In this document: positions 7,485-60,199 of the stretch, in pieces
Layout: each line of letters begins with the position of its first letter
Position numbering within the stretch: the first letter of the stretch is position 1
Origin: Rhizaria sp. SCN 62-66
Lineage: Eukaryota
NCBI GenBank assembly: GCA_001724265.1
Contig: MEDY01000078.1
Span: 1-64,000, forward strand
Length of the DNA: 64,000 bases
Reading direction: 5' to 3'
Translations under genes and position numbers: made by a program
The notes under the pieces: generated by a model
Told to the model about the DNA's origin: nothing
Database searches by the model: none
What the model saw: the letters and a program-made list of their open reading frames with translations, nothing else

Positions 7485-8410
7485 GGGACCAAGGCGCGGG
7501 GCGCGGGATTGCGCGTAGAGTTGGAGAGAGCTTTCTGTTTTGTGGTAGTGCAACCTAAGACTGGTCTCTGGGGCGTGCAGAAAGAGCGGGGATAAGTCGC
7601 TTCAAGTGGGAAACAAAGCGACCAAGTGACATTAGCAGGTGAGCACGGTTTTGGAGGGTATAGAGTCGGGAAATACGCGGGTTTAAGTTGCGACATGGAT
7701 ATTTGCAGGGCATTCTGCGTTTCGGCGGGCACCAGAGCAGATTGTGTGATGTGGCCTCTGACAACATGATTAATCTCGACAATGGCTCATGCAAACACAA
7801 CAATACATTATCTCTTAGATGTGAAAGTACAAAATCTAACTTATGGCTAAATTACATTCTCAAAGCTGTTTGATTGCCGCCGCTGCACCGCGAGATGTGC
7901 TTTCGCAGAGCGGGGCGCGAAGGACCGCCACACTGCTGCTGCCAGCATTTTTGCGAACCGGTCAGTCCGACCGCCGCAACGGCTGGCAAATCACGTTCGC
8001 TCGCATAGCTCGTCACAGACAGATACAGAAAATGCATTATGTAATGAGATGGTTTAGGTTATTATTTCAATATTGGCCCTTGTTTCATTTTTGTATTGAC
8101 GGACGTTTGGCAGCGATGCATCCTGTGAAAGCCTTCGGCCCGAGTCGTTTCTCTGACACTGCTGCCTTTCACCTCTCACATCGCCCCTCACCCCTGAACC
8201 CTTCTTTTTTCTTAATGTACTCCGCCAACTCCTATGACGCCTTGCCTTTTTACTTGTTTACAGTGGCGGCACGCCTTATACCTTTTGGGCTGATCCACAT
8301 AGTCCATCTCTAGTAGGAGCCCTGATTCGACCTGTCACACATCACACAGCACACAGACAACAGCACACAGACACTACCAGCAGCCCTTAACTCTCCCCAG
8401 CGCCACCGCG
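7485..8410. promoter_or_regulatory. Divergent (head-to-head) promoter interval
   Basis: Lies between the starts of two oppositely oriented genes; AT-richer than the exons; contains TTTTTGCGAACCG at 7948-7960. Confidence 0.55.
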
Positions 8411-9447
8411 ATGCACGCCCACGCCGGGCCGCCCCCGCCCGCGGGTTTCACTGGTCCCCCAGTGCCAGGAGCAAGGCCCATAGCGCACCAAAGGCCGTCG
8501 ACCGCCCACCACAGCAGCCGCTTTCGGGTTAACGTACGTTTCCCTCGTTTTCACAATGAAAGAGGAGGCAAAATAACACAAATCTTCACCCCCATTTGTA
8601 ATAGCTCAATTTATTAAACATGTCGCATGATTTCTTTTGTTGGCTTTTATTTGCGTGATATATCGCAGGTTACCTCCTTCTCCGCTGCCCCACCACGGCC
8701 AACAACTGCAACAAGCTCAGCCTCTAGCTCGAGCTCTAGCGCTGCCGCTGGCACTGGTGTAGCAACTGGCACTGGCAACGGCCCTATGTACGCAGCACCG
8801 GCGGGCCCGCCGCCCGCCGCGGCGATGCGCATGTTGCTGCATAGCATCAACTCGTCAAGTGCCAGTGGTGGTAACAGTACTATTAATAATACTGTGGATG
8901 CAAGCAATAGTCACGTGAGCAGCATCGGCGGCGGCGGCGTGAGGCTGACGAAGGCAGAGGAACTCGCCTTTGCAGCAACGCTGCCGTCAGTCGCCGCCGC
9001 CGTTGCCGCCGCGACGACTGCCGACGCTTTGGCTTCGACTGCTGGTGGCAGCAACAGCAGTCAGTCTACTCAGCGGCAGGTGATTGTTCTTGGCCCTGCT
9101 CTGAGCAAACAACAGCCTGTGAACACGAGCAGCGCGGTTACAGACTCTAGCTTTAGCTCTAGCTCTAGCTCTAGCAATGTTACTGCTGGTGCGAACGAAG
9201 CCTTTGATAGCAACGCAAATATTGATGATGATGACGTGTTTTCTCACACCGATGCCGCGTACCTACTGCGACAGGCGAGGTACAAACAACAACAGCAGCA
9301 ACAAAGCAGGCAAAATCAGCAGCCGAATGTGCAACAGCAACAGCATCGTCACCAGCAGCAGTCGCAGGTGAGTCACGATCACGGTCACGCCATTGCTACT
9401 GCTGCTGCTGTTGCTGCTGCTGCTGACGTTGACAAGAGCGGCCCTCC

Positions 9448-9478
<31 letters not shown>

Positions 9479-9670
9479 AGCGATATTTCGGCCGAGGCGC
9501 TCGCGATCGCGGCCGAGCACACAGCTAGCATCAACGCCAGCAACAAAATCAACAGTAGCTACACGTATGGCGACATTGCGCACATCTTTCACACTCTAAA
9601 GCAGCAGTCCATCATCAACAGCAGCGACAGCGGCAGTATCAGCGCTAACGGGACCGCAAGCGTGGCTCCC

Positions 9671-9701
<31 letters not shown>

Positions 9702-12295
9702 CCACGGTGACCGATGCTGGCCTGGGCTTGAATGGCTCATACTGCGACTTCGACGAATCCTCCACAGCACCAGCTGCGCCAGCTGCCTACAGTCACCGGG
9801 CCACCGTGCCTTCTTCGCACAACAACCAGAGCCAGAGCCAGAGCCAGAGTCACGGTAACGGTCCCAGCCACAGTCGCCACAGTCGCAACCGGCAACAGCA
9901 GCGGCCGCGGCCCGCAACGGCCAGGCCGCCTCCCTCCACGGTGACCGCGGCCACGGTGGCTCGTTTGACCGAGAGCGGCAAGTACGGGCACTTGAACTAC
10001 AACAGCTACATCAACGCGCAGCAGCAGCAGCAGCAGCGGCAGCAGCAACAACAGCAACAGCAACAGCAATCTGGTGCTGCTCACGGTCACTCCGTACACG
10101 ACACCCTTGGCGCGACGGACTCTATCATCAAGAGCGCAACTGCATCCGGCGCGGATCACAGTAATAATGACTTCAATATGAGCTACACTCGCCAACGCCG
10201 CCCCGCCACTGCGGTTGTCCGGCCCTCAACCACCAACGCATATATCCTTAACACGACTACAAACCCTCAAACCAACGCCACTACCCAGCTGAATGAGTCT
10301 TTGACGCCCGCGCCTCTAATGACGGCCGCCGGCGCCGAGGCCTCGGCACTGGCCGCGGCCGCCACCGCTGCCAGCGATGCCGTCAGCTCAGAGCGTTCCC
10401 GGCTGCGTTTATGGTGGTTGGAGACGGCGAACTCCGCCCTGACCCAGAAACTGGCCGAGGCCGAGGCGCGCGCCGCGGCGGCGATTGCGGCCGGCAAGGC
10501 GGGCGCGGCGGCGGCGGCCAAGGCAGGGGCGCTGGAAGAGGAAAACACGGTGCTGCGCGCTGCTGTTGCCGAGCTCTATGCCACGAGGTACGACGTGATT
10601 TCGCTAAAGCGCATATTTCTCCTTCACACTGGAATTATTTGAAAAGAAACACAAGTTTAACACAGCAAACTTAAATATTTACTCCTAAGCTCCACTTGTA
10701 TCCAATTTAGCTAACATATAACAACTTAAACACTGGAATTTGCTTAATCCCCGCACCACAGGGACTCAGCGATCGAGCAGGTGCGGAACGACTTAAAGGC
10801 CGAATACTTCCGTCAGCGCGCACTCGTTTTTGACCGCAACGAGGCACTTACACAGGAACATCGCGCTTTGCGCGCCGAGATATCCTCCCTGCAGACGTTG
10901 CTCGCCGAGCGCGAGGCCGGCGGGGCGACGCTGGCGGCCGACGTTGCTGCGGCCCGAACCGACGCCGCCGCCGCCCGCGCCGAGGTCGCCAAGGCCCAAG
11001 AGCAGGCCCGCGAGTGGGAGGCGGCGCAACGCCGGTGTGCCGAGGCCCTCGAGCGCGAGCAGGCCACGTGTACCACTCTGCGCGCGACCGCCGCCGCCCT
11101 GACAGACGAGGCTAAGGCCGCGGCGACCGGGGAGGCGGCGGCCCGCGCCGAGGCCGCCATGGCCGCCGCGGAGGCCGCGACCGCGCGTGCGCGGCTTGAG
11201 GGCGCGGAGCGCGCGCTGGCGGACGTCCGGGCCTAGGTAGCGCGGGCGCACGCGCGCGCGGCGGCGGCGGACTCGGTGCGCGAGGAGCGAGAGCGGGAGG
11301 CCGCTGTGGCCCGCAGAGAGGCAGCGTACGTCACCTCGGAGCAGCAGCGCAAGGACGCCGCCGCCGCCGCCGTGGCCAAGGAGCTTGAGGCGGTCAAGCG
11401 CGGCGCGAGCGAGCGGATCACCGAGATCGAGCGGGCACGCAAACGCGTGGAGGAGCTCGAGGGCGAGGTCACGGCCCTTACCCGGTCTAAGGGGGAGCTG
11501 CTGATGAAACACGACGCGATGGTGGTGGAGCTCAACCGTGCCGTCGAGGCGCGCGCCTTGGCGCTCGGCGAAGCCACCACGCTGACGCGGTCGCTGGGCG
11601 ACGCCAACGCCGAGCGCGGGCAACTGCGCCAGGAGTTAGGCCGCGCCGAGGCTGGCCTAGCTTCCCTGCGGGCGAAGCTGGCTGCCAGCGAGGATGAGGT
11701 GACACGCGCGAGTCACCGCGCCGACGCTGCGCTGGCGCGCGCGCAGGTGGCCGAGGCGCAGACGCGCGGCGCTGAGAGCCGCCGCGGCGAGGCCGAGGGC
11801 AAGGAACGCGATCTGGAGACGCGCATCCGAGAGCTGTCCTCGGCCAAGGCGCTGCTCGAGGGCAACATGCAGTCGCAGGGGACCGAGCTGCGCGGCATGA
11901 CCAAGCAGTGCCTGGCGATGCAGAGCGAGGTCGCGACGCTGCGCGCAGCGCTGGCCGCCAAAACGGAGCTGGTGGCGGCGCTGCGCGGCGAGCGCGACCG
12001 CGCCGAGGCGACGGCCGCGGCGGCAGGACGGAGGGCCGAGACCGGCGCCGGGCGGGCGGGTGCGCTGCAGAGCGAGGTCGTGCGGCTGCACAGGGCGCTG
12101 GCAGCGCTCAAGGACGTCGCGGTGCGGCTGGGGAGCGACAAAGACGGCGGCTTCACGGCTGAGGGCGACGGCGGCTCTTCTGATGAGGCTTCAAGCGCGA
12201 GGGCTAGTTTACTCAACAGTATTGGCTCTGCTGCGTTTGAAGGGTCTGGGTTTGTCGACGAGCAAGGAAGCTTCCGCTGGCCTGGACAGTTTTAA
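8411..12295 (+). CDS. Protein with a low-complexity N-terminus and a long coiled-coil C-terminus (~1191 aa if the internal TAG at 11234-11236 is decoded). Model: join(8411..8533,8669..10587,10762..12295)
   Basis: Introns 8534..8668 (GTACGT..CAG) and 10588..10761 (GTACGA..CAG) join the ORFs in frame. ORFs 10781..11236 and 11276..12295 share a frame, are both Ala/Glu/Arg coiled-coil-like, and are separated only by one TAG. Ends in TAA. Confidence 0.75.
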
Positions 12296-12883: not shown

Positions 12884-14279
12884 TTAGATGCGCAGCGTAG
12901 AGTCGCCGCCGGCGTCGCCGGCCTCCATGCTCCACAGGTCAGTCGTGGCGGTGTCGCCGCTGGCCATGCGCGCGTCGACGCGGTCGCCGGAGGAGAAGAC
13001 GGCCAACACATCGGTCAGAGAGGCCAGGTGCGTGGGCTTGCCGTCGTCGTCGATGACCCAGAGGCGGTGCAGACGCTTGCCGGCCAGCGCCATGACGAGC
13101 TGGCGCAGCGTCGACGTCGCCGTGGTGCACACAGGCGAGAGCTGGTTGCTAGAGTACGTTTTGAGCCACTCCAGAACGGGCAGGTCCAGCGACGCAAACA
13201 GCGCAGGGAAGCCGTCCTTGGCCGTGAGGTCGTGCAGGTCGCTCGTGGCCACGTCGCACACAAGGCGGCCGGCCTCGTCCACCACGGCAAAGGCCGAGCG
13301 GCGCTGCGAGGCGAAGCGCTGCAGCACATCGATGAGGGGCGCCGTGTGTGCGACCGTCTCCACGGGCTTGAACACGCCCAGGGTGGAGGCCAGCGTCTCG
13401 CCCGCGGCGGCGATCTGGGGCGCGGTGGCGGCCAAGGCGGCGGCGCTGACGCCGGCCAGTCCGCCCTCGGAGGCCGCGAGCTTGGGGGAGCCGCCGCCCT
13501 CGTGAGCAGCGGCAGCGGCGGCGGCGGCGGCGTTGAAAATGGTGTTGATGTGAGCAATGAGGTCGGACTGCGAGCAGATGGACGACAGGCAGCGGTCGCG
13601 GCCGAAGAGCGCGACGCGATGGATGCCCGTGGACATGAAGTCCACCATCATGCTCACGGGGTTCTCACTGAACACAGGTACTAGGCGGTCCGTGGAGGCC
13701 GCCTTGACAACCTCGGCGGCGGTGATGCGCGCCAGAAAGGCCGCTGCGTTGTGCGCGTGCGTGCTGGAGCGCGATACGAGCACGGTTGCGTGGGAGGAGG
13801 CGCCGCCGCCACCGCCGTTGTTGATGGCGTGAGTCAGGATCGACAACACGTCGATGAAGCCGAGGCACTTGTTGGCGCCGCCCGCGGTGCGGATAACCGG
13901 CACGGAAAGGATCTTATGCTTGTGTAGCAGCGCGAGCACGTCCGTGACGGGCAGTGTGTCGGGCACGGTGACGGTGTGGCGGTTGGCGGGGATAATGCTG
14001 CGCAGGGGCGTGTTGTACATGAGCTTGTAGAACGGGTTGGGAGACAAGATCGTCACCTCGTTCTCAGTCATCTCCTGTAGTAGATTTGCGATGGCATGCC
14101 AGATGTGTACATTTTGTTGGCAGAGAGGCACAGTGAGGTTTAGGTGAGCGTATTGCACGAAAGAGCGAAACAAGATACGAGGCGAAGAATTAGGGCGTGG
14201 AGTCCAAATGCAGGGAGAAACGTACACCGGCGCGACTGGAGCGGCGCGTGGTAGTCGTGGCAGTGCCAGAAACCGACAT
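12884..14279 (-). CDS. CBS-domain protein with four CBS repeats (AMPK-gamma/SDS23-like), 414 aa. Model: complement(join(12884..14074,14226..14279))
   Basis: CBS motifs LLHKHKILSVPV...GFIDVLSIL, GIHRVALF...SICSQSDLI, SAFAVVDEAGRLV...TSDL and RLHRLWVIDDDGKP...SLTDVL. Intron 14225->14075 (GTACGT..CAG), phase 0. Confidence 0.85.
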
Positions 14280-14765
14280 TGCTTCCTGTGATGAAGTAAA
14301 CATGCGGTATACAGTGTACATGGACGAGTTTCGGGTGTGAGAAGCAATGGAAACATGGAGGGGAAGGTCGGAGATTCTTGCCCTCTCGCCTAGCCAGATC
14401 GCCACACTCTTCGAGTGCAATAAAATAAGAATCAACGCATTTATCAACAGAAAATACCGACATGCAAAAAGCCAGTCACGTTCTGCGGCAAATTGCACCG
14501 CAAAATGACGGATTTGAGAGGACCAAAGATTGCTTCTGTCGTCAGCGTCTCGAAGACGAAAGCAGCTGCTCGCTCGATTGCTCGCCGGAAGTTTTTGCGA
14601 ACCGAGTCGATTCTCTGTTTGTTTCTCGATGTCGGGAGGGCCGAAGCAGCGGGGCGGCAAACGTGAATAGCACAACCACATCTTCGTGAGTGTGATAGTA
14701 AACTTAACCAACAAGTCTTCCGACAGTATATTTATTCTGGGTGATATATTATCCCTCTCCACACA
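14280..14765. promoter_or_regulatory. Compact divergent promoter between the CBS gene and RRP1
   Basis: 486 nt between the two ATGs; contains TTTTTGCGAACCG at 14592-14604. Confidence 0.6.
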
Positions 14766-17700
14766 ATGAGCTCCGAGGCCGGTACGTCTTTTCCCACACC
14801 CACTTTTCCCCTACCTTCATTGCTCGAGCTACACCTACCTTCTACGAACTCTGTCTCCATCAAGACTTCATCTGAAGAAATGTTACTTGGTGACCGCATT
14901 TTATACACACGAATATATCTAAATCCACGCGTTGATCTTCACTGACTACTTCTTCTGTGTTGTATCCCTTGCTTCCCGCATGACTCTTGCTGATCGTTCC
15001 TCTTCACAGGTAATTTCAACCTGTTCCAGCGTCTGTCTCACAACGAGCAGAAGGTGCGGACCAAGACGCTCCACACGGTGCGCAACTACCTGCGCACGCG
15101 CCACGAGATGTCCGAGCTGGACATGCTCAAGGTTGCCAAGGGCCTCTTCTACTGCTTCTGGATGTCCGACAAGCCGGCGATCCAGCAGGAGCTTGCGTGG
15201 ACCATGGCGCGCACGCTGCACGTCATCCCGCCAAAGTTCGCGCCGCTCTTCATCCGCTGCTTCTTCCGCACGATGGTGCGCGAGTGGGGCGGGCTCGACC
15301 GCTTCCGCATGGACAAGTTCTTCAGCCTCGTGCGGCGCACCACGGGCGAGATGTTCGCCTACCTGCGCAACAACAACTGGGACTACGCGCTCACGCGCGA
15401 GATGATGGCCGCTGTCAGCGACGAGGTCTCGGCGCGCGCCACTGACTCCGGCCGCGGCGTTGCGCTGCACGTGGCCTCGCTGTGGATCAGTGCACTGCGC
15501 CACGGCATCGCCTCGCGCCGGTCAACCTACGCGCTGCCGCCGCGCACCTTCCCGACGCAGAACGCCGACGGGTCCGAGGGTGCGGCGGCGGCCGCGGCGG
15601 TTGAGGTGATCCCGCCGCCCGTGATGGTGCTGCTGCTGAAGCCGATGATCGAGCTGGGCACGGTCACCACGGACCCGGCGCTCGCGCGCGCGCTGCAAGA
15701 GGGCACCTGGGGCCACGTGCGCGGGCTCGCCGGCCGCACGATTCGCACCATGGCGCGCTTGGCGGGCATGGACCTAGCTGAGGAGGAGGAGGAGGAGCTG
15801 AGCGCCGAGGCGGCCAAGATGGTCGGCGCGATCCCGAACAAGTCCGAGACGGCTGCGGAAGAGGACCAGGTCGACGACGGCGTGGTCGAGGAGGCCGAGG
15901 AGGAGGAGGACGAGGAGATCGACTATGGCAACGACAACATGTTCGCCAATGACGACGATGAGGACACCAAGAAAGCCTCCAAGAGCAAGGCCGCCCCTGC
16001 TGCTAAGAAGGTCGCCAAGAAGGCCAAGAAGGGCAAGCGCGGCTCCAAGGACGACGACGACGATGACGATGAGAACGAGTTCGACGACGACGACGGCGAC
16101 GCCTCTGCACACGGCGCCGGCGGCGCCAATGCCATCAACCAGGGTTCCCTGATGCTCGGCCCTTCGATGGTCGAGGCGCTGTCTTCGCTCACCACAGTCA
16201 TGTTCGACATCGCATCCCGCGGCACGCTGCCCAACAACGCCACGCGCGGCCGCTTCTACCGCATCCACGCCGCGCTCGCGCCTCTGCTGCGCCAGGTATG
16301 TAGACTTGAACAGGATATGTCTCATGCATATGATAGTATTTCAAAATGAATTTTCATATCCAAACTTGAATTGCTTTTTCTTTTTTTAGTTCACTGACTT
16401 TTCTTTGTAATTTTATCTTGTACTTCTATTTGCGATATGATAACACAGGCGATCAAGACGAAGTTGGTGGACCTGAAGCAGTCAGCGCACATCGCGCAGG
16501 CGACCAAGGCCGTGCTGGGCCGCGACTACCCGCTGCTGGAGCAGTCGATCGCGACTGCGCTGCGCAAGGCGCGCGTGGCGGACCGCGGCAGCCTCGACGG
16601 GCGCGCCGTTGAGCTCATCGTGTTGCAGCAATTCGGGCTGGACAAGGCGTGCGGCACTGACGCCGCGGCCGCCGCCAAGGCCGTCAAGGAGGCCGAGGCC
16701 GCGCTCCGGGCCGGCCCGCAGACCGTGGCTGAGGGCACCAAGGCCTACAGCGCCCAGCTCACCGGCGAGGCAGCCGCCCCCGCTCCCGTTAAGGCTAGTA
16801 CTGCTAAGGACTCCGCCAAGAAGACTGCTGCCGCTGCCCCCGCTGCTAAGGCTGCTGCTGCTAAGGGCGGTGAGACCAAGCTCCAGAAGGCCATCGCCAC
16901 CGCGGGCGCCGCCGCGGCCGCCGCCAAGCCCGCGCGCGAGACCGAGGCGACGGCCAAGGTCTCCGAGCGCAGCGGCAAGGTGGGTTCCCGGACCGTGGTG
17001 ATGGAGACTGACGCCAAGGGGAAGCTGCGCACCGTCCAGACCACCGAGTCCGGCTCCGAGTCCGACGAGGACGAGGACGAGGAGGACCTCGAGATGGACG
17101 AGGATGAGGACGAGGACATGATGGACTTTGAGGGCGACGAGGGCGACTTCGAGGGCGACTTTGAGGGCGATTTCGAGGGCGATGAGGATGACATGATGCG
17201 CGCTATGATGATGGGCGACGAGGGCGACTTTGAGGGTGACTTTGAGGGTGACTTTGACGGTCTTGAGGGCGATCTCGAGGGCGACGAGTCGGTGTTCTTC
17301 GATGAGGCCGACGAGGAGGACGCCGACATCGACGAGGGCGACGAGGAGGAGGGTACGTCAACACTTCCGGCACTCTGCGCAAAACAGAAGTTAAAATGCA
17401 CATTCCTGTGGTTTCTCACAGAGATTATATCGAGCTTAAGATCTAGTTTACAATACGATTTTAAATGTGGCGCACTCTCTCTTGTAATTTTATTACATAT
17501 TCCTCATATGTCTCTCTACCTATCCCATTTGTGTTCCCTATTCTTTGTTTAGACATCGAGTTCGACGAGGACGACCTCTACGCATCGGACTCCGAGTCCG
17601 AGCCCGAGCCCGCCGCCGCACCCGCCAAAAAGGGCTCTGCCGCCACCGCCAAGGCCCCCGCTGGCAAGACCGCGCCCGCGCCCATGGGTTCCGGCGCACG

Positions 17701-25517: not shown

Positions 25518-26476
25518 GAACTTCGGGTACTGTGCGCAGAGATGCGTTGTGCTGCGGTGTGCGGACTCCAAACGGCATGAGTCCGTTTGTCTGGCGAGTT
25601 TGAGTCTGGACGAGTGATAGAGTACCACCTCAGGGCTAACGCGCAGCGCAGTGGTAGGCTTATCATGAACTATAGGAGGGCTGTCGGTGGCCAGGTTCAT
25701 TAAGATGGCCAACGAAAGAGATACGAGACATTGATTTGTGTCAAATACACAGTTGTGCTCACGAGAAACGCGCCCTTTTTTCCGCAACGTGATATCAAGT
25801 TCGACTTGAAAACTCCAGGACAAGCACCTTATGCGCTCGTTTTGTTATAACTCAACGTCTCACGAGATTAAAATAAGCTTGCTTGATTTCACTGCGATAC
25901 ACAAAACACTTTTTTCTTACCCGGGTGATTTCACTAAGTTATGATTGTTGGACGTCTAAACTTCCCAGCCAGCCCGTGCTGGTTCGCAGAAATTTGAAAC
26001 TGGTGGTTGCTCACGGTCAGTGAGGGCCAGCCAACCACAAACAAAAACGAGTGCCTCGTATCAACCTTGCCTTTTTCAAAAAAGGGCCATATAAATCGGT
26101 ACTACTGTGGAAACTGCAGAAGGTGCAACGCTAATGAAAGTGTTGTTAATGTTGTAGTTCTAATCCCATGTCATGTTTCGCTGTTTGTCGTGCATATAGA
26201 AGCTGGAACTGTTTCGCTCTCAAAACTCACCACGAACTCGCTTTTGTGCTTCCCCGATCTTTGCCTGCAGCACCCGCGTCTTCAAGCGAGCTCTCCGTCG
26301 TTTGATTTCCTTTCCCACGCCCTTGTCTCCTACTAGGCGCGTGTCCGGGCTTTCTTTTTCTCCTTTTTGCATCGCGTTTCCTCCCTCCCGAGTCGCGACC
26401 CCCGTTCCCGCCCTCTCTCCACCACACACGCCTTTTCGCGCCTAACCCGCCCGTTACCGACGTGCACGTTTGTCTC

Positions 26477-28189
26477 ATGAGCAATCCCGTGCCTCGCCCC
26501 GCCGCCGCCGCCCCCGGCGCGGCCTCTGCGCTGCCCGCCGCGTCCATCGCCGCTCTTCGTGTGCAGGAGTCTGACCGCCACGCCTCATACTCGGACATCA
26601 CTGGCGCCTTGGCCAACGAGCTCAACTCACCGACTGAGACTTACTACGCCCCGCTCGCGCTCGCGACCACGGCCTCGATGCACGTCAACCCCGGCGCCGT
26701 CGCCAGCGCCGCGGGCGCCCCCGTGCGCGTGGCTGCCGCGCCCTCCGCCGGCTCGGCTGCCGTGACCCCCGCCGCCTCTGCCACCACGCCTGCTCCTGCT
26801 CCCGCCGCTGCCGCTGCTGCCGGCGCCGCACCGCTGCTGGCGCAAACGCAGATGCTGCGCCAGTCCTCCGGCAACGCCAGCTCCAGCACCGCAATCGCCA
26901 CGAACGCGACCGCCAACCAGGGCGTCGGCGCTGGCGCTGGTTCGATCAGCCTGATGCCCCGCATTCCCGCCTCGGCCTCCTCGTCGTCGTCCAGCACGAG
27001 TCTCTCGAAGCGCTCGCTCTCGGGTGCGCCGGGCGCTCTCCCCGGCGTCGCAAGTGGGCTTATTGGCGGCCCCGGCAGCGGCCCCCACAGCAGCAACCCC
27101 GCCGCCGCCGCCGCCGCCGCCGCTGGCGGACTTGCGCTGCCTTCGCCGATCCCCATGTCCAACGCCATCGCGAGGGCCCCCGCGGCCGTGATGGGCAGCG
27201 CCGGCGCCGCCGCCCCTGCGGCCGCGGGCGCGGCTCTGTTTGCGCACGGCATGTCGCGCACTTCGTCCAACACCACAAACAACAACAACGCCGCCGCTAC
27301 CGCCGGCGGCGCTCTTCCAGGCGTCGGCGTCAGCGGCGGTGTGTCGGCCGGCGTCGGCGCGACCCCGGCCGGCAGCGTCACCGCGTCGCTGGGCGCTGCG
27401 CGGCCGTCGTCGTCGCCCAACAGCAGCGCTCAGTCGCTGAGCAGCGCACAGTCGCTCGGCACCGCGCCGGCGCTGGGCAGCGTCCAGTCCATGGGCGGAC
27501 CCGGCCCCCAGTCGCTGGGCGGGGCGCTGTTGCCCAACAGCCTCTCGTCGACGTTCTCCAGCAACCTGCAAGCCTTCACTGGCGGCCTCCACAACGCCAG
27601 CGCCGCCGCCAACGCCGCCAACGCCGGCCTCATCGGGAGCATCACCGGCATCGGCTCGGGTCATGCAAGCTCCAACAGTAGCATGTCGGCGGCGGACGGC
27701 GGGCTGGCCTCTCCCGCTGCCAGCCTCGCGATCCCCGGGCTGCAGGCCATGAGCACTGCCATCACGACGCAGGGCGGCATCGTCTCGCGCATCTCCGACG
27801 CCGCCGCCGCCGCGGTCAAGACCGCCGTGGGCACGCAAGCCGGTTCCGCCGCGCGCTCGGCGCTGGCGTCGCCTCCGGGCGGCTACTCGGCTCTGCGCGC
27901 CCCTGGCGCCGCCAACGGATACGGCACTCAGCAGCAGCAGCAGCAGCAGCAGCAAGCTCAGCAGCAGCAGCAGCAGGGCCAGCTGGCTGCGCCTTACGCC
28001 GCGGGTTCCCGCCGCCCGACCGCCGCCCTCGCCGCGGGCGCGGGCAGCGTCGGCAGCGCGGGCAGCTTGCACCAGCAGCAGCAGCAGCTGCAGCAGACGC
28101 GCAAGACGGCCGCCTACGCTGCCGCCGCCGCCAACTCGGCCGCCGGCGCCGCGGCATCCTCGCCCGCTGCGGTGGGCTCGGCCATTGCG

Positions 28190-28220
<31 letters not shown>

Positions 28221-30202
28221 CTGGTGGCAACGCCGGCCCTGGCCGCCGCAACAGCCGCGTCTCGGCCGCCCAACAGCAGCAACAGCAGCGGCAGCAGCAG
28301 CTGCTGGTGGACGCTAGCGGCTCGCGCGGCCGCAGTGGCGCTACCAGCGGCAGCGGCAGCGGCGGCAGCGGCGCCGCGACTGGCCACGGCCACGGGCACG
28401 GGAGCAAGGGCATGCTGTACAGCGACATCAACAGCGACGTGTCGCAGAACGCGCGCCGCGCGCTCGTGCACAGCATGCAGAGCGCGCGCGTCATGGCGCT
28501 CGACGCCGCTGCGGATCCCAGTGCGGCGGCGGTGCTGGCTGCAACGACTGCTGCGTCCAGCTCGGCTGCGGCCGCAGCGACCGCCGCTGCTGCCGCCGCC
28601 GCCAACGGCCGCAAGCGCCGCGCCGGTGCCGTCACTGCCGCGGGCGGCGCTGGCAGCACGGCGGCGGGCCGCAAGCGCGCGCGCAACGCCGACGGCAGCA
28701 GCAGCGGCAGTGGCAGCGGCGCCGGAAACAACGCGGACGAGGACGACGACGACAACGACGACGACGACGACGACGGCGCCGGTGAGGGCGACTTGCACAG
28801 CGAAGTGATCCGGCTGCCCGCGAAGCCCTACGACGCCGTGTCGCGGCTCGCGCGGCTGCAGCGGTGGCTCGAGAAGCGTGCGCGCATTCTCCACGCGACA
28901 GAGCGCCGCGTCATCTACCAGTGCCGCAAGGAGTTCGCAGACGAGCGGCCCCGCATTGGCGGCCGCTTCATCAGGAAGGTACGGACATGACACGGCATGA
29001 CACTGAAACAAAACAAAAACCGATTAAATAGTTTAAACAACCTTGAAGCGTTGGAATATTTCAATTTCTATCTCTCACAATTCGTCACTTTGATTCCCTG
29101 TTGTGCTCCTCCTCCCCCTTTGCAGACCGACGAGCAGAAGCGCGAGGCCGAGGCGGCCAAGGCGGCTGAGAAACAGCGCAAGAAGCTCGAGAAGGAGGCC
29201 GAGAAGCAGAACAAGAAGCTGGCCAAGGGCGGCGCCAAGGGCCGCAACGGGCGCGCCATCGTCAACGCCGCCGCGGCTGCCAACGCCGCGGTCGCCAATG
29301 CCGCGCTCGCAGTCGCCGCGCGCTCTGCCGCCGCCGCCAACGCCGCCACCCATCCCAGCGGCGCTGGCGGCCGCGGCTACGGCGTTGGCAACAGTAGCTC
29401 GCTTTCAGCTCTGTCGCTGCCTCAGCAGGTTAACAACAGCGGCAGCGCCGCTGCCGGCGGAATGCCCGCCCCCGGCGCTGCCGGCCGCGGCGGCCGCGGT
29501 GGCAGCTCCGCCGCGCTCGTTGCCGCCGCCGCCGCTGCTGCCGCCGCCGGTGCAGACTCTGGCGCGCTGGCCCAGGCCCAGGACGCCGCCGCCACCGCCG
29601 CGCCGATGCTGGGCGCGGTGCTCGCTCCGCCGGTGCCCGGCCGCCGGCCCAGCGCGGCGCGCCACCAGATGCAGCAGCAGATGCTGCTCAACAGCGGCGC
29701 CGCTGCGACCGCGGGCGGCATTCTCCCCGGCCCTGGCAGCGCCAGCGGCATGCCGCCGCCCCAGCAGCGCATCGCGGCCGCGGTCACCGGCGGCCGCGGC
29801 GGCGGCGCAGTGATGCCCCCGCCCTCCGTGCCCGCCCCCGCTGCGCCGGCGCCGGCACCGCTGCCGGCGCTGACCGCGCGCGCGGCGACTCGCCAGTCGT
29901 CCCGCCACGCCGCCCCCGCCGCCGGCCACCACGACTGGGCCGCCCCGGCGTCTGACTCGGCCGCTGCGGCCGGGCTGGGCGGCCTCGGCGGCCTGGGTCT
30001 GTCAACCTCTGCGGGCGCAGGCGGCCGCGGCGGCAGGCTCGTCCCGGGCGCGCTCGCGTCGCCCAGCGCCAGCGACAACGGCGGGCTCATGTTGAGCACC
30101 GGCATGGGCATCGGCGCTGGCGTTGGGGACGGCGGCGTTGGCGTGGGTGCGCTGGCGCCCGGCGTGCTGGGCACCACGCGCTCGGGCCGCAAGATGCGGT
30201 GA
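26477..30202 (+). CDS. CCT-motif (CONSTANS/CO-like/TOC1) protein, otherwise Ala/Gly/Ser/Gln low complexity, ~1192 aa. Model: join(26477..28978,29126..30202)
   Basis: RLARLQRWLEKRARILHATERRVIYQCRKEFADERPRIGGRFIRK matches the CCT motif (~28843-28978). Intron 28979..29125 (GTACGG..CAG), phase 0. Basic NLS-like segments RKRR and RKRAR. Confidence 0.85.
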
Positions 30203-53046: not shown

Positions 53047-54153
53047 TTACTCGTCCTGGTCGTCGTGGACGTCGTTCTCGGGCGAGGTCCAGAGGGTCAG
53101 GTTGTCGCGAAGCAGCTGGAGGATCAGGGTGCCGTCCTTGTACTGCTGCTCATCGAGCTTGTCGAGCTGCAGGATGGCCGCGTCGAAGGCCTCGGACGCG
53201 AGCTTGCACGCGGCGTCGCGGTCCTTGATGATCTCGTAGAGGCAGACGGAGTAGTTGAGCGCGAGGCCGAGGCGGACGGGGTCGGTGGGGTCCATGATCG
53301 CGGTGGCGGTGTCCATGGCGCCCTTGTAGTACTCACCGGAGCGCTTCTGGAGCGTGGGGAGCTCGTCGGTGACGATGAACTCGGCCAGGTAGCGGTAGTA
53401 GTCGCCGGCCATCTTCTGGTAGAAGACGCGCGCCTCGTCGTTGGCCTGGAGAGAAATAGTGCAGCAAAAAAATACGAAATGGCGATTGGTGTGAGAAGTG
53501 GGGTAAAATATACAAAGACATCGAGCTATAGATACAAAATGGCACTATTATGCACGCCGCCTAGAGCGGATTAAGGAAATATCATTGTGGAAGCTATATA
53601 AAGCGAGATATGCGCGCTCGCGTACCTGGGGGTGGGGGATGAGGTACTGCTCGAGGAGCTCGAGGACGTCCTTGCAGAGGGCCTCAAGCTCAGACTCGAC
53701 GTGAGCGCGGAAGCGAGCAGACGCGGGGGTCTGGTTCTCGTCCATGTTAAGAACGCGCCAGGCGGCACGGCGGCCACCGACGGCGTTCTTGTACGCGACG
53801 GAGAGCAGGTTGCGCTCGTCGAAAGAGAGATCCTTGCCGTCCTGCTCGTAGAAAAGAATGAAATTTAGATTAGAATGAAGGGTTATGTGAGTGAGAAGAA
53901 TGGATTTGGGTAGCATAGTTCGTGTAGTATGTTATATCAATAGGGTGCTTGTTACCGTCGCGATCTTTGTGTGTAACGGCGCGTGTGAAGAAGGTCGTAC
54001 CTGGACAGCCTTGACGACCTCGCGCATGAAGGCGCACATGTCGTCGTGGCGCTCGGCCAGCTCGGCGATATGGGCCAGACCCTGGAACGAGTTGCGGGCC
54101 TCGGCCTTGGAAGCGACGGTGAACTTGGAAATGTCGAGCTTGAAGTCAGACAT
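53047..54153 (-). CDS. 14-3-3 family protein, 255 aa. Model: complement(join(53047..53445,53626..53841,54001..54153))
   Basis: Signatures AELAERHDDM, ERNLLSVAYKNAVGGRRAAWR, KMAGDYYRYLAE, PVRLGLALNYSV and YKDGTLILQLLRDNLTLWTS. Two phase-0 GTACG introns. Confidence 0.95.
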
Positions 54154-55369: not shown

Positions 55370-58300
55370 ATGGACGCTCACGGCGACGCAAGTACAGCGT
55401 CTCTCGGCGTCGTGGTGAGCGACACAGCCACATCGATGTCGTCATCAAGCCCAGATACAACTTCACAGTCGCAGTCGCCGCAGAGGCCGCCGGCCGCCGA
55501 CGTGCCGCTGCGCCCCTTCGTGGCCTCCAACGCGTCCTCTGTCCCGGACTCCGGCGCAGCAGACGCCGGCAGCAACGACTTTGGCAACAACAACAACAGC
55601 GGCGGCGGCAGCTATAGCACGAGCAACACGTTCAGTATGGCCTCCAGTGGTCCCATCGGGAACGATGCTGCTGCCGTCGCCGCTGCCGCCGCTGCTGCTT
55701 CGACTGTTGCTGATGCCGCCGCTGCGATACGCGAAATCGACGTGGACCCGGGCGGCTCTCTCAACCACGGTCACGGCCACGGCCACGGCACTATTCACCC
55801 TGTTGTAATGTCGGACGACGACAACGCACACGCGCACGCGCACACGGCGAACGCCGCCGTGGGCAGCAGCAGCGCCAGCAGCAGCAGCAGCGGCTTCGGC
55901 GTTGGCGGCGGCGGCGGCGGTGGCGTTGATGACGGACTAGAGCTGCCCCTGCTGCTCGAGTCGCCCCCTCTGGTAGCGGCGCAGCCCCCGGCGTCGGGCG
56001 CCTCGGCCCCGCTTCCGCCTCTCGGCTCAGCTGCAGCCTCAGCTGCAACCACACGCGCAGGTGCAGGAGCAGGAGCGGGGTCAGGGACGGGGGCGGGGGC
56101 TGGTGCGGGTGGCGGGGGGATCATGGGGTCGGTGATTGGTGCAGCGATGCTCCCAAGCACGGGCATTAGTTCTCATCCGCACTCGCATACTCACTCGCTT
56201 CCTCACTCTGGCTCTGGCTCTGCCGCTAGCGCTGGCGCTGGCGCCGGCCCGATGAATGACAGTGACCATCAGCAACAACAGCAGCAGCAACAGCAACAGC
56301 TACAGCAGCATCAACTTCAGCAGCAAGGTCACTTCGATGCTGCGGTTGCCGCCGCGGCTGCGGCGGCTGCGGCTTCTTACAGCGCCGGTGGTAGCAACAA
56401 CAACAACAACAACAACAATATTAACAACAGTGGCAATAACTACACAGGCACGTCTGCCCACGGGCACGCTCATGGGCACGCTCATGGTCACTCTGCTCTT
56501 CCAACGAGTCACGGCGGACACAGACACGACCTTGCCCACAGGCTCGGCCACACTCAGAGTCAGAATCTCGACCACAGCCAGAGCCATAGCCACGGCCACG
56601 GCCACACGGGCGACTACGGTCACGGCCCCGGCCAGCCCAACCACGCGCATCCCCCAGTGACGGTGAGCAGCGTGGAGAGTGAGAGGATGGCGAATCACAT
56701 CCTCGCAGCGGCCCTGGCTGCCAGCAACAACAGCAACAGCAACAACAACATCAACGGCAATGGTCCGTCTGCTCTTCCAGTCGCAGGTGCAGTCTCCGGT
56801 CACACTCACCACAACCGCGCTCAGGGCCACGGCCACGGTCCCAGCCCCGGCCCCGTCGGCGTCAACGCTCTCGTCCCAGTCGCCTCCTCTGCCGCCGCCG
56901 CCGCCGCCGCCGCTGCCGCCGCCGTCGCCGCTGCCGCTGCCTCTGTGATGACCGTGACCCCCGCGCCGCCCGCGGCCCTGACAAGTCCCGCAGGCCCCGC
57001 GGCCGCGGGAGGCGGCGCGAATCAGTCTGTGGCGGTAGCGGTGCGCATGTCCGAGGCCGAGCTGGCGGCGGCGCGCGCGCGGCTGCCAGCCTCGGTCGCG
57101 GGGCGCAGCGACGAGTTCGTGACGGTGTACGTGCAGCTCGCCAACCGGCAGCGGCACAAGAAGAAGCCCGTGGTCGAGTCGACGCGCCCGCAGCCGCCGC
57201 ACTCGGTCTACACCTACTACACGCACGCCAATCGCGCGCGCGTGGCGGCCACGATGCCGCCCGATACGGGCTTCATCGAGGTGTCCCGCGCGCTGGCGGT
57301 CGAGTGGGGGCGGCTTACTGAGGCGGACCGCGCGCCATACCAGGTACGAGCAAATAGAACGACTTATATCACATCAAATATTTTCATTGTATTTCGACTT
57401 AATTAATTCGTTTAAACTAAATCAAATAAGTTGGTATTCTCATGCAACCGTTTTATATCGTCTTGAAATCTATCTCACTTTATACTCTTCTCAACTCTTG
57501 TGTGGTATCCGTGGTCTTCTAGGCCCTGGTGGACGAAGACCGGCTGCGGTACGAGGAAGAGCTCCAGATGCTCTCCGAGGCCGACCTCCAGCGCGAGGAA
57601 ATCAAGCCGTTCCCGAAGCGGCCCCGTGCGAGCGGCCCCAAGCGCGCGGTGTCTGCGTTCCTGTACTTCGCGCAGCAGAACCGCGGCAAGATCAGGGACG
57701 ACCATCCGGGGCTGTCATTCTCGGACGTATCGCACCGGCTGGGCGAGGCCTGGGCGCAGTTGCCCGCGGAGCAGCGCGCACACTTCGAGGAGAAAGCCAA
57801 GGACGACAAGAACCGGTTCTTCGACGAGAAGAAGACGATGAAGGCCAAGGAGGCGGCTGAAGCGGCCGCGGCGGCCGCGGCGGCGGCGGACGCCGAGGCG
57901 GCCGAGGCCGAGGCGGCGGCGGTGGCGGAGTCGCGGAACTCTGTCGCCGCGGCCATTCTCGCGGCGTCGGTGGGGCAGCAGCAACACGTGCAGCAGTTTC
58001 AGCAGCAGCAACAGTTCCAGCAACAGTTTCAGCAGCAGTTTCAGCAGCAGCAGCAGCAGTACCAGCAGCAGCAGCAGATTCAGCACGCGCAGCAATCCTC
58101 CCAGCAGCAACAGCAGCAGCTCCAGCAGCAGCAGCAGCAGCCGCCGCAGCAGCAGGCGGCACTGGTCAGTTCGCACGCTCACGGTCTCTCAGTGCCCGTG
58201 CCCGTACCCGTGTCGGTCGTCCCTGTGGGAGTTCCCGTCCCAGTCCCGGTCGGCGTCTCGGCCCAACTGCCGGGAGTACCCGTGGGTCCCGGCGGGGTAC

Positions 58301-58508
58301 CCGTGGGGGTCGGCATCGGCGGGTACCACCTCCCGTCGCCGTTTCACCCGCACCCTCACGCGCACGCGGCCGCGCCCCCGGCCCACGGTCACTCGGTCAA
58401 CGTCGGCGTCGGAGCTCACGGGCACGGGCACGCGCACAGTCACTTTTCGCAGATGTTACCGCCGCCGCTGATGCCGATTCCGCACCACATGCATCATCTC
58501 GCTTCGCA

Positions 58509-58565
<57 letters not shown>

Positions 58566-60199
58566 AACAGCGGCGGCGGCGGCCGCTGCAGCTGCGGCGG
58601 CGGCGGCCGCTGCAGCGGCAGCTGTTCCTGTGTCCGGCTCTGTGGCTGGGGCCATGACTGGAGTCCCGGGCGCGGGCGCGGGGTCTGTCGCTCCGCCGCC
58701 GCCGCCGCCCAACCTCGGCGCCTTCCACCCGCACCCACAGCTCCACAGCCACGCGATGGGGGCCCACAGTCACCTGGGCGCCCACGGTCACTCCGTCCCG
58801 GTCCCGGTGTCGGTTCCGGTGGCAGTGTCAGTGCAGGGCCAGCCCTCGCTCCAGGGCCCGCCCTACCCCATGCAGATGCCGCCGCACATGGCCGGTACGT
58901 TGAAGCACAAAACGGGGGATATAGCGGCAATATTACAATGTATTTTGAATATAATACTATAATATGTTAAACTATTATATTCGATGATATCATGTTTTAC
59001 AAATTATCACTCATATCTTGAATCTATGCAATGTTTTGTTCGCTTTCCTTTGCTTCAGGTATGCCGATGCACACCTCTCAAGCAACCGCCGCCGCCGCAG
59101 CCGCCGCAGCCGCTGCCGCCGCCGCAGCCGCGCACCAGCATCAGCACCACTTGCAATATCAGCACCAGCTGCCGCTGCCGCCGCCGCCGCCGCCCGCCGT
59201 GGCCGCGGGCTTGCCCCCGCTGCCGCACCTACCACCGCACCTGGCCGCCGCACACGGCCACGTCGCCGCCCACGGCCACGGCCACGGGCTGCTGCCTCCC
59301 AGCATGATGCACCTGCCGCCGCCGCACGCGATGGCGCTGGGACTCGGGCTGGGGGCGGCGCCGCCGGCCGTTGCCCCCCCGGCCCCGACTGCGGCCGCTG
59401 CACCTGCAGCTATGACCACAGCGACGACAAAGAGTGACGCTGTGACTGGCAATGCGAGCGCTGGTGACACTGCGACAGCGACGACGGCGGTCGATACGCC
59501 GATGTTTAGGTCGCGTGCTGCCACGGCGGTGGCCAACGCTGGCGCCGGCGCTGCAACTGGGGCCGCCGACGCAAGCGGCCCTGACATCGGCAAGACTAAC
59601 AGTGTTGCGGCCGCCGGCTCTGGCGCTGGCTCTGGCGTTGGCGCTGCGGGGGCCGGGGTGAAGCGGAGGTCGCCGGACTCCGACTCTGGCTCCGGCTCCG
59701 GCTCTGTCGAGATTGCTCATGCCGCCAGTGCCGTCGCACCGGCAGCCCCGGTCTCGACCCCGGTCTCGACAGCGACAGCGACAGCGGTCAACGCGGGCGC
59801 TGGCAATGGCAATGGCGCGGCAACGGCACCGTCAGCACACAGCCACGGCGCCCCTGCTCAAGCCGTCTCTGGCGGCGGCGCTGCGTTGAGCCTCGGCGTC
59901 AATGCCAACGTCGTTGCTGCCGGCCACACGAGCCTCAACGTCAATGTTGGTGTCGATGCCGGTGTCGGTGTCGGGGCGGGTGCGATGCCTCTGGGGTCGT
60001 TTAGCCCGTACCTCTCAGCACACCCACATCCTCACCACGGAGCTCACGGTCACTCGGCTCACGGTCACTCGGCTCACGGTCACTTCGGACTGGGTGAGCT
60101 GGCCGGCCCGCCTCCGATGGCGGCTACTGGGGCCAGCGAGACGATCGGCCAACAGCAGCAGACGCAGCAAGCTCAACAGCAGCAGCAACAGCAGCAGAC

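What the first reader, a model, noticed from the sequence alone, without database searches (positions are those of the whole stretch)
11234..11236. In-frame UAG inside an otherwise intact coiled-coil exon, while no gene in the window ends with UAG
Seen: ...ERALADVRA*VARAHARAAAADSVREERERE... The frame stays open and coiled-coil-like, with GC-rich codon usage, for ~350 more codons to TAA 12295. The site is GC-rich and unlike the AT-rich introns. The 11 reconstructed terminators are 7 TAA, 4 TGA and 0 TAG. Established: UAG-only reassignment is known in protists (UAG=Leu in rhizarian exLh, UAG=Gln in Iotanema spirale), and programmed readthrough can yield long and short isoforms. Inference: candidate rare-codon UAG reassignment, or programmed readthrough giving ~838-aa and ~1191-aa forms. 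Caveat: this is the only TAG in roughly 16,700 reconstructed codons, so a nonsense allele or base-call error (CAG/GAG to TAG) is at least as likely.
Basis: partly seen in the sequence, partly recalled or inferred. Interest (0 to 1): 0.72.

Follow-up and report, generated by a model that had tools for sequence, protein, structure and literature searches.

The report
Premature TAG stop in coiled-coil gene
A real TAG stop codon interrupts a long coiled-coil gene of an uncultured wastewater eukaryote; it is most likely an ordinary nonsense mutation (CAG to TAG), not a sign of a changed genetic code.

Summary
TAG at 11234-11236 lies in frame inside exon 3 of a three-exon gene (ATG 8411, TAA 12295). 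There are 838 codons before it and 352 after it. The downstream part is true coding sequence: same GC-by-codon-position pattern, same codon bias, and homology to the only relative found. That relative, P0005, is one uninterrupted 907-aa ORF. It is collinear with both sides of the TAG, and its best-conserved block lies downstream of it. A second run's independently built contig repeats the TAG with no difference, so a base-call error is unlikely.

Nothing positive supports recoding:
- P0005 has CAG (Gln) at the aligned position, one C-to-T step from TAG.
- 99 of 136 one-step paths to a stop in this exon lead to TAG.
- No other in-frame TAG occurs in 14,165 confident codons.
- The RNA after the stop is no more structured than the rest of the exon.
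- "0 TAG terminators" rests on 9 genes.
- The relative's locus ends ORFs with TAG.

Best reading: a recent nonsense allele (0.55). Readthrough or UAG=Gln cannot be excluded, because no whole genome, tRNA set, eRF1 or raw reads from a second strain were available.

The parts
8411..8533 (+). Exon 1 (inferred): ATG plus 41 codons, ending before a GTACGT donor.
   Evidence: Read from the sequence. It is in frame with ORF 8303..8617. No RNA joint confirms the splice.
8534..8668 (+). Intron 1 (inferred): 135 nt, AT-rich, GTACGT...AG.
   Evidence: A contig of run X4 covers 8393-8687 unspliced; that run's kind (DNA or RNA) is not on record.
8669..10587 (+). Exon 2: low-complexity N-terminal part (poly-Q, poly-A, S-rich) and the start of the coiled coil, with a WWLE motif.
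   Evidence: ORF 8618..10642. Its last 60 residues match P0005 323-382 (35% identity, E 1e-5).
10588..10761 (+). Intron 2 (inferred): 174 nt, AT-rich, GTACGA...AG, phase 2.
   Evidence: The P0005 alignment runs on across the junction, from residue 382 to 389.
10762..11233 (+). Exon 3 upstream of the stop: 157 coiled-coil codons.
   Evidence: Codon log-odds +0.32 bits/codon. It matches P0005 389-540, E 6e-6.
11234..11236 (+). In-frame TAG, in the context GCC TAG GTA GCG and inside the palindrome CCTAGG. It aligns to CAG (Gln 542) of P0005.
   Evidence: A 1503-base contig of run X2 (the same in X3) covers 10076-11520 with 0 differences. Alignments are; the relative's codon is.
11237..12292 (+). 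352 further codons with an intact coding signature: the C-terminal coiled coil and tail.
   Evidence: PolyA-RNA library contigs lie on 11282-11475 and 11958-12170.
11765..11944 (+). The best-conserved block of the family (LE..QSQG.ELRG.TKQ...LR..L.AKT), downstream of the TAG.
   Evidence: It is the only tblastx match between the window and L001: 43% identity over 60 aa, E 1.8e-10. BLASTP gives 38% over 128 aa without gaps.
12293..12295 (+). TAA, the end of the ancestral reading frame, followed by a 33% GC non-coding stretch.
   Evidence: All six frames score negative after it.

Best explanation
The TAG is a real premature termination codon. It is a recent nonsense mutation, most simply CAG (Gln) to TAG by one C-to-T change. 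It is carried by the strain or population of an uncultured eukaryote that dominated the bioreactor samples. Under the standard code, translation stops after residue 838. The product then lacks the C-terminal 353 residues, including the family's best-conserved block, so this allele is truncated or dead. The stop lies in the last exon, so exon-junction-dependent mRNA decay would not be expected (inference), and the mRNA may persist. The downstream frame still looks coding because too little time has passed for decay. Shown: the TAG is in the DNA of two runs, the downstream part is homologous coding sequence, and the relative has CAG. Inferred: the direction and recency of the mutation and its effect on the protein.
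For: 1. The TAG is reproduced with 0 differences in a 1503-base contig at depth 5.46 from run X2. That depth matches the neighbouring contigs (6.98 and 5.26), so nothing suggests a minor variant there.
2. P0005 is the only relative among 1,835,955,588 representatives besides the organism's own fragment (3 hits in all, one of them a spurious repeat protein). It is one 907-aa ORF collinear with exon 2's end, exon 3 upstream and exon 3 downstream. The TAG therefore interrupts an ancestral ORF.
3. BLASTP and MAFFT both place the TAG opposite Gln in the block AERA....R. That codon is CAG in L001.
4. In exon 3, 99 of 136 single-base paths to a stop give TAG, from 58 GAG, 17 CAG and 12 AAG among others. 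The stop being TAG needs no special explanation.
5. No other in-frame TAG occurs in 14,165 confident codons, which hold 426 CAG and 101 CAA. Every other in-frame stop flagged by the scan and examined sits in an AT-rich GTACG/GTAAG intron.
6. Only 92 of 3168 possible substitutions in the downstream 352 codons create a stop. An intact frame is expected until roughly 3% neutral divergence.
Against: - The most conserved part of the protein lies downstream of the stop. Losing it should be costly unless the gene is dispensable or a second intact allele exists.
- Downstream codon bias (+0.28 bits/codon) and GC3 (0.84) are undiminished, and there is no second lesion.
- None of the 9 confirmed terminators is TAG.
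- The aligned residue is Gln, which is what UAG encodes in Iotanema spirale and, by recall, the commonest meaning of reassigned UAG.
- The +4 base is G and the next codon is GUA, as in the luteovirus 'type III' readthrough site AAA-UAG-GUA (table in PMC3542737).
- No intact (CAG) allele was seen in any run. The contigs of the second study (X4, X6) have no long piece over 11234, so the polymorphism itself is not shown.
Confidence: 0.55

Rival explanations
1. Programmed or leaky stop-codon readthrough. UAG is a stop in this organism, but at this site a near-cognate tRNA inserts an amino acid in a fraction of ribosomes. The gene would then give an 838-aa form and a full 1191-aa form.
For: - The coding signature runs on in frame for 352 codons.
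- The conserved block lies downstream.
- The context is UAG-G and UAG-GUA, the 3' context listed for type III sites and luteovirus coat-protein extension (PMC3542737 passages).
- PolyA-library contigs cover 11282-11475 and 11958-12170.
Against: - Type III sites need a 3' RNA structure. The 120 nt from the stop fold no better than shuffles: z +0.87, with 166 of 200 shuffles at least as stable.
- 60 of 95 windows of the same exon fold at least as well, and so do 38 of 42 windows of similar GC.
- There is no CARYYA and no UGA-CGG/CUA motif.
- The only relative has a sense codon there, not a conserved stop.
- RNA cover downstream is equally expected for a 3' UTR, and one contig of that run also holds intron sequence at 10728-10761, so DNA or unspliced RNA is present.
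Confidence: 0.15
2. UAG is (or is becoming) a sense codon, probably Gln, in this lineage. UAG has been purged from terminators and has begun to reappear inside genes, which would be an early codon-capture stage.
For: - 0 of 9 confirmed terminators are TAG; they are 7 TAA and 2 TGA. This TAA/UGA-only pattern is like that reported for Iotanema (104 UAA, 15 UGA) and exLh (56 UAA, 15 UGA).
- The TAG aligns to Gln/CAG in the one homologue.
Against: - There is one TAG against 527 CAG+CAA in 14,165 codons. Known UAG-only codes show 1.6-5.4 in-frame UAG per gene. TAG ends in G, so the strong GC3 preference would not suppress it.
- With p(TAG) of 0.1-0.2, 0 of 9 occurs by chance in about 13-39% of samples (my arithmetic).
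- The relative's locus uses TAG to end 2 of 5 complete ORFs, including the homologue itself, which ends TAG TAG.
- No tRNA at all lies in the window, so nothing positive on the decoding side.
Confidence: 0.05
3. Artefact: a consensus or assembly error, or a minor or heterozygous variant fixed by the assembler, while most cells or the other allele carry a sense codon.
For: - Depth is low, about 5-7x in run X2.
- The contig comes from a metagenome.
- Logan contigs drop rare variants, as the tool text says.
- X2 is from the same study as the probable source run X1.
Against: An independently built contig of another run and sample gives the same base, with 0 differences over 1445 bases and the same depth as its neighbours. 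Random base-call errors do not reach a consensus twice.
Confidence: 0.1
4. An unrecognised small intron or RNA editing removes or changes the TAG in the mRNA.
For: GT follows the TAG directly (TAG|GTAGCG). P0005 lacks about 15 residues just after the site in the BLASTP alignment.
Against: - A donor at 11237 leaves the TAG in the exon.
- The only GT shortly upstream (11224) gives intervals of 61-76 nt to the next AGs, none a multiple of 3 (my reading).
- The introns I mapped in the window are AT-rich, 135-182 nt, with GTACG or GTAAG donors. This stretch is 77-85% GC.
- Homology to P0005 runs to within two residues of the TAG.
- No joint over the site appears among the 15 joints shown for the four runs; 10 more were not shown.
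Confidence: 0.03

Closest known systems
Premature termination codon (nonsense) alleles segregating in natural populations
   Same: A single base step from the sense codon of a homologue (CAG in P0005). The reading frame is otherwise intact, there is one site only, and it lies in a low-complexity coiled-coil gene in the last exon.
   Different: The intact allele has not been seen, and the stop removes the most conserved block of the family.
UAG-only reassignments: UAG=Gln in Iotanema spirale and UAG=Leu in rhizarian exLh (Panek et al. 2017, PMC5304391; passages read)
   Same: An in-frame UAG in a coding sequence. The terminators seen are only UAA and UGA. The aligned residue is Gln.
   Different: Those organisms carry 204 UAG in 126 genes and 384 in 71 genes, at conserved positions. 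Here there is one UAG in about 13-15 genes and 14,165 or more codons. No tRNA-CUA or eRF1 data exist for this organism.
Type III programmed readthrough (UAG-G plus a 3' structure; luteovirus AAA-UAG-GUA, gammaretrovirus UAG-G plus pseudoknot; Firth and Brierley 2012, PMC3542737; passages read)
   Same: UAG followed by G, here UAG-GUA, and a long in-frame coding extension.
   Different: No 3' structure stands out from the rest of the exon or from shuffles. This is a cellular gene, and the stop is not conserved in the one relative.
P0005, an unnamed 907-aa coiled-coil protein on a 411-kb JGI metagenome contig (locus L001)
   Same: Collinear homologue: a WWLE motif, a VLR.A.AEL block and a QSQG.ELRG.TKQ block, with 24-27% identity overall and 38% in the best block.
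   Different: It is intronless, at 52% GC, and uninterrupted. It ends with TAG TAG and has no gene-order similarity to the window.

Membership tests
UAG stop-to-sense reassignment (exLh / Iotanema type) | Many in-frame UAGs spread over many genes | tested here: not met
   1 TAG in 14,165 or more confident codons, against 1.6-5.4 per gene in the known cases. Only one 64-kb window could be tested.
UAG stop-to-sense reassignment (exLh / Iotanema type) | UAG absent from bona fide terminators | tested here: inconclusive
   0 of 9 confirmed terminators are TAG; they are 7 TAA and 2 TGA. The sample is too small to be significant.
UAG stop-to-sense reassignment (exLh / Iotanema type) | In-frame UAGs align to one amino acid at conserved positions of homologues | tested here: inconclusive
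   One site and one homologue: Gln/CAG. A CAG-to-TAG mutation predicts the same.
UAG stop-to-sense reassignment (exLh / Iotanema type) | A tRNA with anticodon CUA and an altered eRF1 | not testable with these tools
   There are 0 tRNA genes in the window and no whole genome is held.
Programmed stop-codon readthrough | A known stimulatory sequence context (type I CARYYA; type II UGA-CGG/CUA; type III UAG-G) | tested here: inconclusive
   The context is GCC-UAG-GUA-GCG. Types I and II are not met. The +4 G and GUA of type III are met, but a +4 G alone is common.
Programmed stop-codon readthrough | A 3' RNA structure starting about 8 nt after the stop (needed for type III) | tested here: not met
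   z +0.87 against 200 shuffles. 60 of 95 exon windows fold at least as stably.
Programmed stop-codon readthrough | Protein-coding signature continuing in frame past the stop | tested here: met
Programmed stop-codon readthrough | The stop codon itself conserved in relatives | tested here: not met
   The only relative has CAG in a continuous ORF. That relative is distant, at 24-27% identity.
Nonsense (premature stop) allele | One base step from the sense codon found in homologues, with the frame otherwise intact | tested here: met
   CAG in P0005. 352 open codons follow with unchanged codon bias.
Nonsense (premature stop) allele | An intact allele present in other individuals or strains | tested here: inconclusive
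   The contigs of the second-study runs X4 and X6 have no long piece over 11234. X2 and X3 carry TAG.

The most novel reading that the evidence does not exclude
The UAG is decoded, probably as Gln, to make the full 1191-aa protein whose best-conserved block lies after it. This could be the first reappearance of UAG as a sense codon in a lineage that has purged it from terminators. It could instead be a cellular type-III-like (UAG-GUA) readthrough in an uncultured GC-rich wastewater protist.
Probability: 0.18. Interest if true: 0.65.

Novelty: already known. Interest (0 to 1): 0.2.

Why it matters
If this is a nonsense allele, it matters only as a caution. In GC-rich, GAG/CAG-rich genes almost every random nonsense hit is TAG, and small terminator samples easily lack TAG. 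A lone in-frame TAG is therefore poor evidence for a variant code.

If the TAG were decoded, it would be a very early stage of UAG capture, or a cellular long-extension readthrough, in an uncultured protist lineage. That would be worth a whole-genome look. The genome-wide test is cheap once the organism's bin is recovered.

Tried and rejected
- Whole genome of the window: none is held, so no genome-wide TAG census, tRNA-CUA search or eRF1 check was possible.
- tRNA scan of the window: 0 genes.
- Rfam at gathering thresholds: 0 matches.
- Word-based protein searches with the downstream ORF ('longer') and with the read-through exon 3 ('near') found nothing among 8000 scored candidates each. A search with P0005 residues 300-907 found only P0005 itself.
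- JGI metagenome scan with the exon-3 protein: 598 pattern matches, none confirmed.
- Laying contigs of X4 and X6 (second study, a slightly different strain with 6 listed differences elsewhere in the gene): no long piece covers 11234, so no second-strain base call. No splice joint was seen for either intron. One X6 contig starts inside intron 2 (10728), so that library holds unspliced RNA or DNA.
- ESM Atlas with P0005 300-907: only generic long coiled-coil clusters, scores 0.92-0.93 and structure TM 0.25 or less, so no family.
- Other in-frame stops as a second case: TGA 28988 lies in a 147-nt in-frame AT-rich intron of a CCT-motif gene. TAA/TAG at 53545-53550 lie in the 14-3-3 intron. TAG 61861 lies in a 182-nt intron. 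TAG 22907 is out of frame in a normal exon.
- A tiny GC-rich intron over the TAG: rejected, see the rivals.
- Taxon of the organism: not resolved. The 14-3-3 exon hits plant and animal PDB chains about equally, E 2e-39 to 6e-37.
- Earlier notes of this scan: none for this genome, its look-alikes or the search words.

Full report
**What is there**

The window is a eukaryotic contig. Its best DNA holders are bioreactor and wastewater metagenome runs. No whole genome is held for it.

Exons are 60-75% GC, while introns and spacers are about 30-45% GC. The sequence reads GTC CGG GCC TAG GTA GCG, with TAG at 11234-11236.

The TAG separates two ORFs of the same frame: 10748..11236, and 11237..12295 (352 codons, ending TAA). 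Reading together gives this gene model:
- exon 1 at 8411-8533, starting with ATG;
- a 135-nt AT-rich intron with a GTACGT donor;
- exon 2 at 8669-10587;
- a 174-nt AT-rich intron with a GTACGA donor, phase 2;
- exon 3 at 10762-12295.

**Is the downstream part really coding?**

Yes, on several counts.
- GC by codon position is 0.77/0.55/0.84 downstream. It is 0.80/0.59/0.83 upstream and 0.63/0.56/0.80 in the window's 6738-codon ORF.
- I trained a codon log-odds model on three other genes of the window. It gives +0.28 bits/codon downstream in frame and +0.32 upstream. The other five frames score +0.02 or less over the whole stretch.
- All seven 150-nt sub-windows are positive in frame. In two of them (11237-11386 and 11987-12136) one antisense frame scores a little higher, so the model is not sharp at that scale.
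- After TAA 12295 all six frames are negative.
- From position-specific base composition, the chance of 352 stop-free codons is 0.02.
- Among all 164 stops of the window with 60 open codons on each side, this TAG ranks first for coding signal on both flanks.

**Homology**

Word-based searches found nothing. An exhaustive phmmer search of 1.84 billion representatives found three proteins:
- P0004, 210 aa, is the same organism's C-terminus from another assembly. It is identical except for its first five residues.
- P0006 is a repeat protein matched over about 50 residues, which I treat as spurious.
- P0005 is 907 aa, E 7e-8.

P0005 is collinear with the gene in three pieces:
- exon 2's end, with the WWLE motif: 35% over 60 aa, E 1e-5;
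- exon 3 before the TAG: E 6e-6;
- the part after the TAG: 38% over 128 aa without gaps, E 9e-18.

These E-values are pairwise. The alignment also bridges intron 2, which supports the splice model.

The P0005 gene lies on a 411-kb JGI contig (L001) as one uninterrupted ORF. The only tblastx match between the window and L001 is the block at 11765-11944, downstream of the TAG.

So the TAG interrupts an ancestral reading frame, and the best-conserved part of the family lies beyond it.

**Is the TAG real?**

A 1503-base Logan contig of run X2 covers 10076-11520 with no difference. Its depth of 5.46 is like that of its neighbours.

X2 belongs to the study of the probable source run. This therefore counts as one semi-independent confirmation.

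A random base-call error is unlikely. A minor or heterozygous second allele cannot be excluded, because contigs drop rare variants.

Runs X4 and X6, from another study, carry a slightly different strain with six listed differences elsewhere in the gene. They have no long piece over 11234.

PolyA-library contigs of X6 lie on 11282-11475 and 11958-12170. One X6 contig also begins inside intron 2, and no splice joints were seen. RNA cover downstream therefore says little.

**Why TAG, and why only here?**

- Exon 3 is rich in GAG (58), CAG (17) and AAG (12). As a result, 99 of the 136 single-base paths to a stop end in TAG. A random nonsense hit here is expected to be TAG.
- BLASTP and MAFFT both put the TAG opposite Gln in an ungapped block (AERA....R). 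The codon in L001 is CAG, one C-to-T step away. This rests on one homologue at 24-27% identity, and BLASTP opens a gap two residues further on.
- In 14,165 confident codons there are 426 CAG and 101 CAA and no other TAG, TAA or TGA.
- The other same-frame stops flagged by my scan and examined sit in AT-rich introns with GTACG or GTAAG donors, or are out of frame.

For comparison, the known UAG-only codes carry 384 UAG in 71 genes (exLh) and 204 in 126 genes (Iotanema) (passages of PMC5304391).

**Terminators**

I could confirm nine: TAA at 12295, 12884, 18034, 18463, 31866, 53047 and 60275, and TGA at 30202 and 60946. None is TAG.

With a TAG share of 10-20%, zero of nine happens by chance in roughly 13-39% of samples (my arithmetic). 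In the relative's locus, 2 of 5 complete ORFs end in TAG, including the homologue itself, which ends TAG TAG. That organism is distant, however.

**Readthrough signals**

The context GCC-UAG-GUA-GCG has neither CARYYA nor UGA-CGG/CUA. It does share UAG-G and UAG-GUA with 'type III' sites. According to Firth and Brierley (passages of PMC3542737), those sites depend on a 3' RNA structure.

- The 120 nt from the stop fold at -53.7 kcal/mol, no better than dinucleotide shuffles: z +0.87, with 166 of 200 shuffles at least as stable.
- 60 of 95 windows of the same exon fold at least as well, and so do 38 of 42 windows of similar GC.

**Verdict**

The most economical reading is a recent CAG-to-TAG nonsense allele in the sampled population (0.55).

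The intact downstream frame does not argue strongly against this. Only 92 of 3168 possible substitutions there make a stop, so decay would not show until about 3% neutral divergence.

Against this reading stand the loss of the most conserved block, the absence of any second lesion, the lack of TAG terminators, and the Gln alignment. These are exactly what a decoded UAG would also give.

I therefore keep readthrough at 0.15 and reassignment at 0.05. An artefact or hidden second allele gets 0.10, and an unseen intron or editing 0.03.

None of the decisive genome-wide tests could be run with what is held. These are a TAG census in conserved genes, tRNA-CUA, eRF1, and raw reads of other strains.

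Noticed in passing
window 31866-52082 (-): A single 6738-codon ORF without stops or visible introns and with a strong coding signal (+0.45 bits/codon). Neither half matches any Pfam family at E 0.001.
   Followed up: partly
window 8534-8668, 10588-10761, 28979-29125, 53446-53625, 61736-61917: Uniform intron style: 135-182 nt, AT-rich, inside 60-80% GC exons. Donors are GTACGT, GTACGA, GTACGG, GTACGC and GTAAGA. The 147-nt intron of a CCT-motif gene is in frame and holds a single TGA, so it mimics an in-frame stop.
   Followed up: partly
window terminators at 12295, 12884, 18034, 18463, 31866, 53047, 60275 (TAA) and 30202, 60946 (TGA): TAA ends 7 of the 9 genes whose end I could confirm, although GC3 is about 0.8. 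This is an unusually AT-rich stop preference for so GC-rich a coding genome.
   Followed up: partly
P0004 against window 11663-12292: A 210-aa protein from a 6.7-kb ENA contig is identical to the gene's C-terminus except for its first five residues. The first four of them (the fifth was not searched) are encoded nowhere on the + strand of the window (the only strand scanned). That assembly therefore differs upstream of about 11675 by a variant, a chimera or a different gene model. Logan contigs of X2 also break between 11520 and 11625.
   Followed up: partly
runs X2 and X3: The two runs carry different sample, study and year labels but give contigs of identical lengths and depths. They are probably one data set filed twice and should not be counted as two confirmations.
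   Followed up: no
window 11231-11236: The TAG sits in the palindrome CCTAGG, so the minus strand also reads TAG at 11233-11235 and bounds two antisense ORFs there. In the one antisense ORF that spans the site, TAG, CAG, GAG and AAG would all read as Leu.
   Followed up: yes
window 8669-12295 and L001 10001-12724: The gene belongs to an orphan coiled-coil family with only one detectable relative among 1.84 billion representatives. The shared motifs are WWLE, VLR.A.AEL and QSQG.ELRG.TKQ. There is no Pfam family above threshold.
   Followed up: partly
window 53047-53931 (-), 26306-30202 (+), 14994-16349 (+), 12884-14389 (-), 57523-58962 (+), 60946-61383 (-): Recognisable neighbours are a 14-3-3 protein, a CCT-motif protein, Nop52, a CBS-domain protein, an HMG-box protein and a RING-finger protein. 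Many products are rich in poly-A, poly-Q and poly-S runs. The taxon was not identified.
   Followed up: partly
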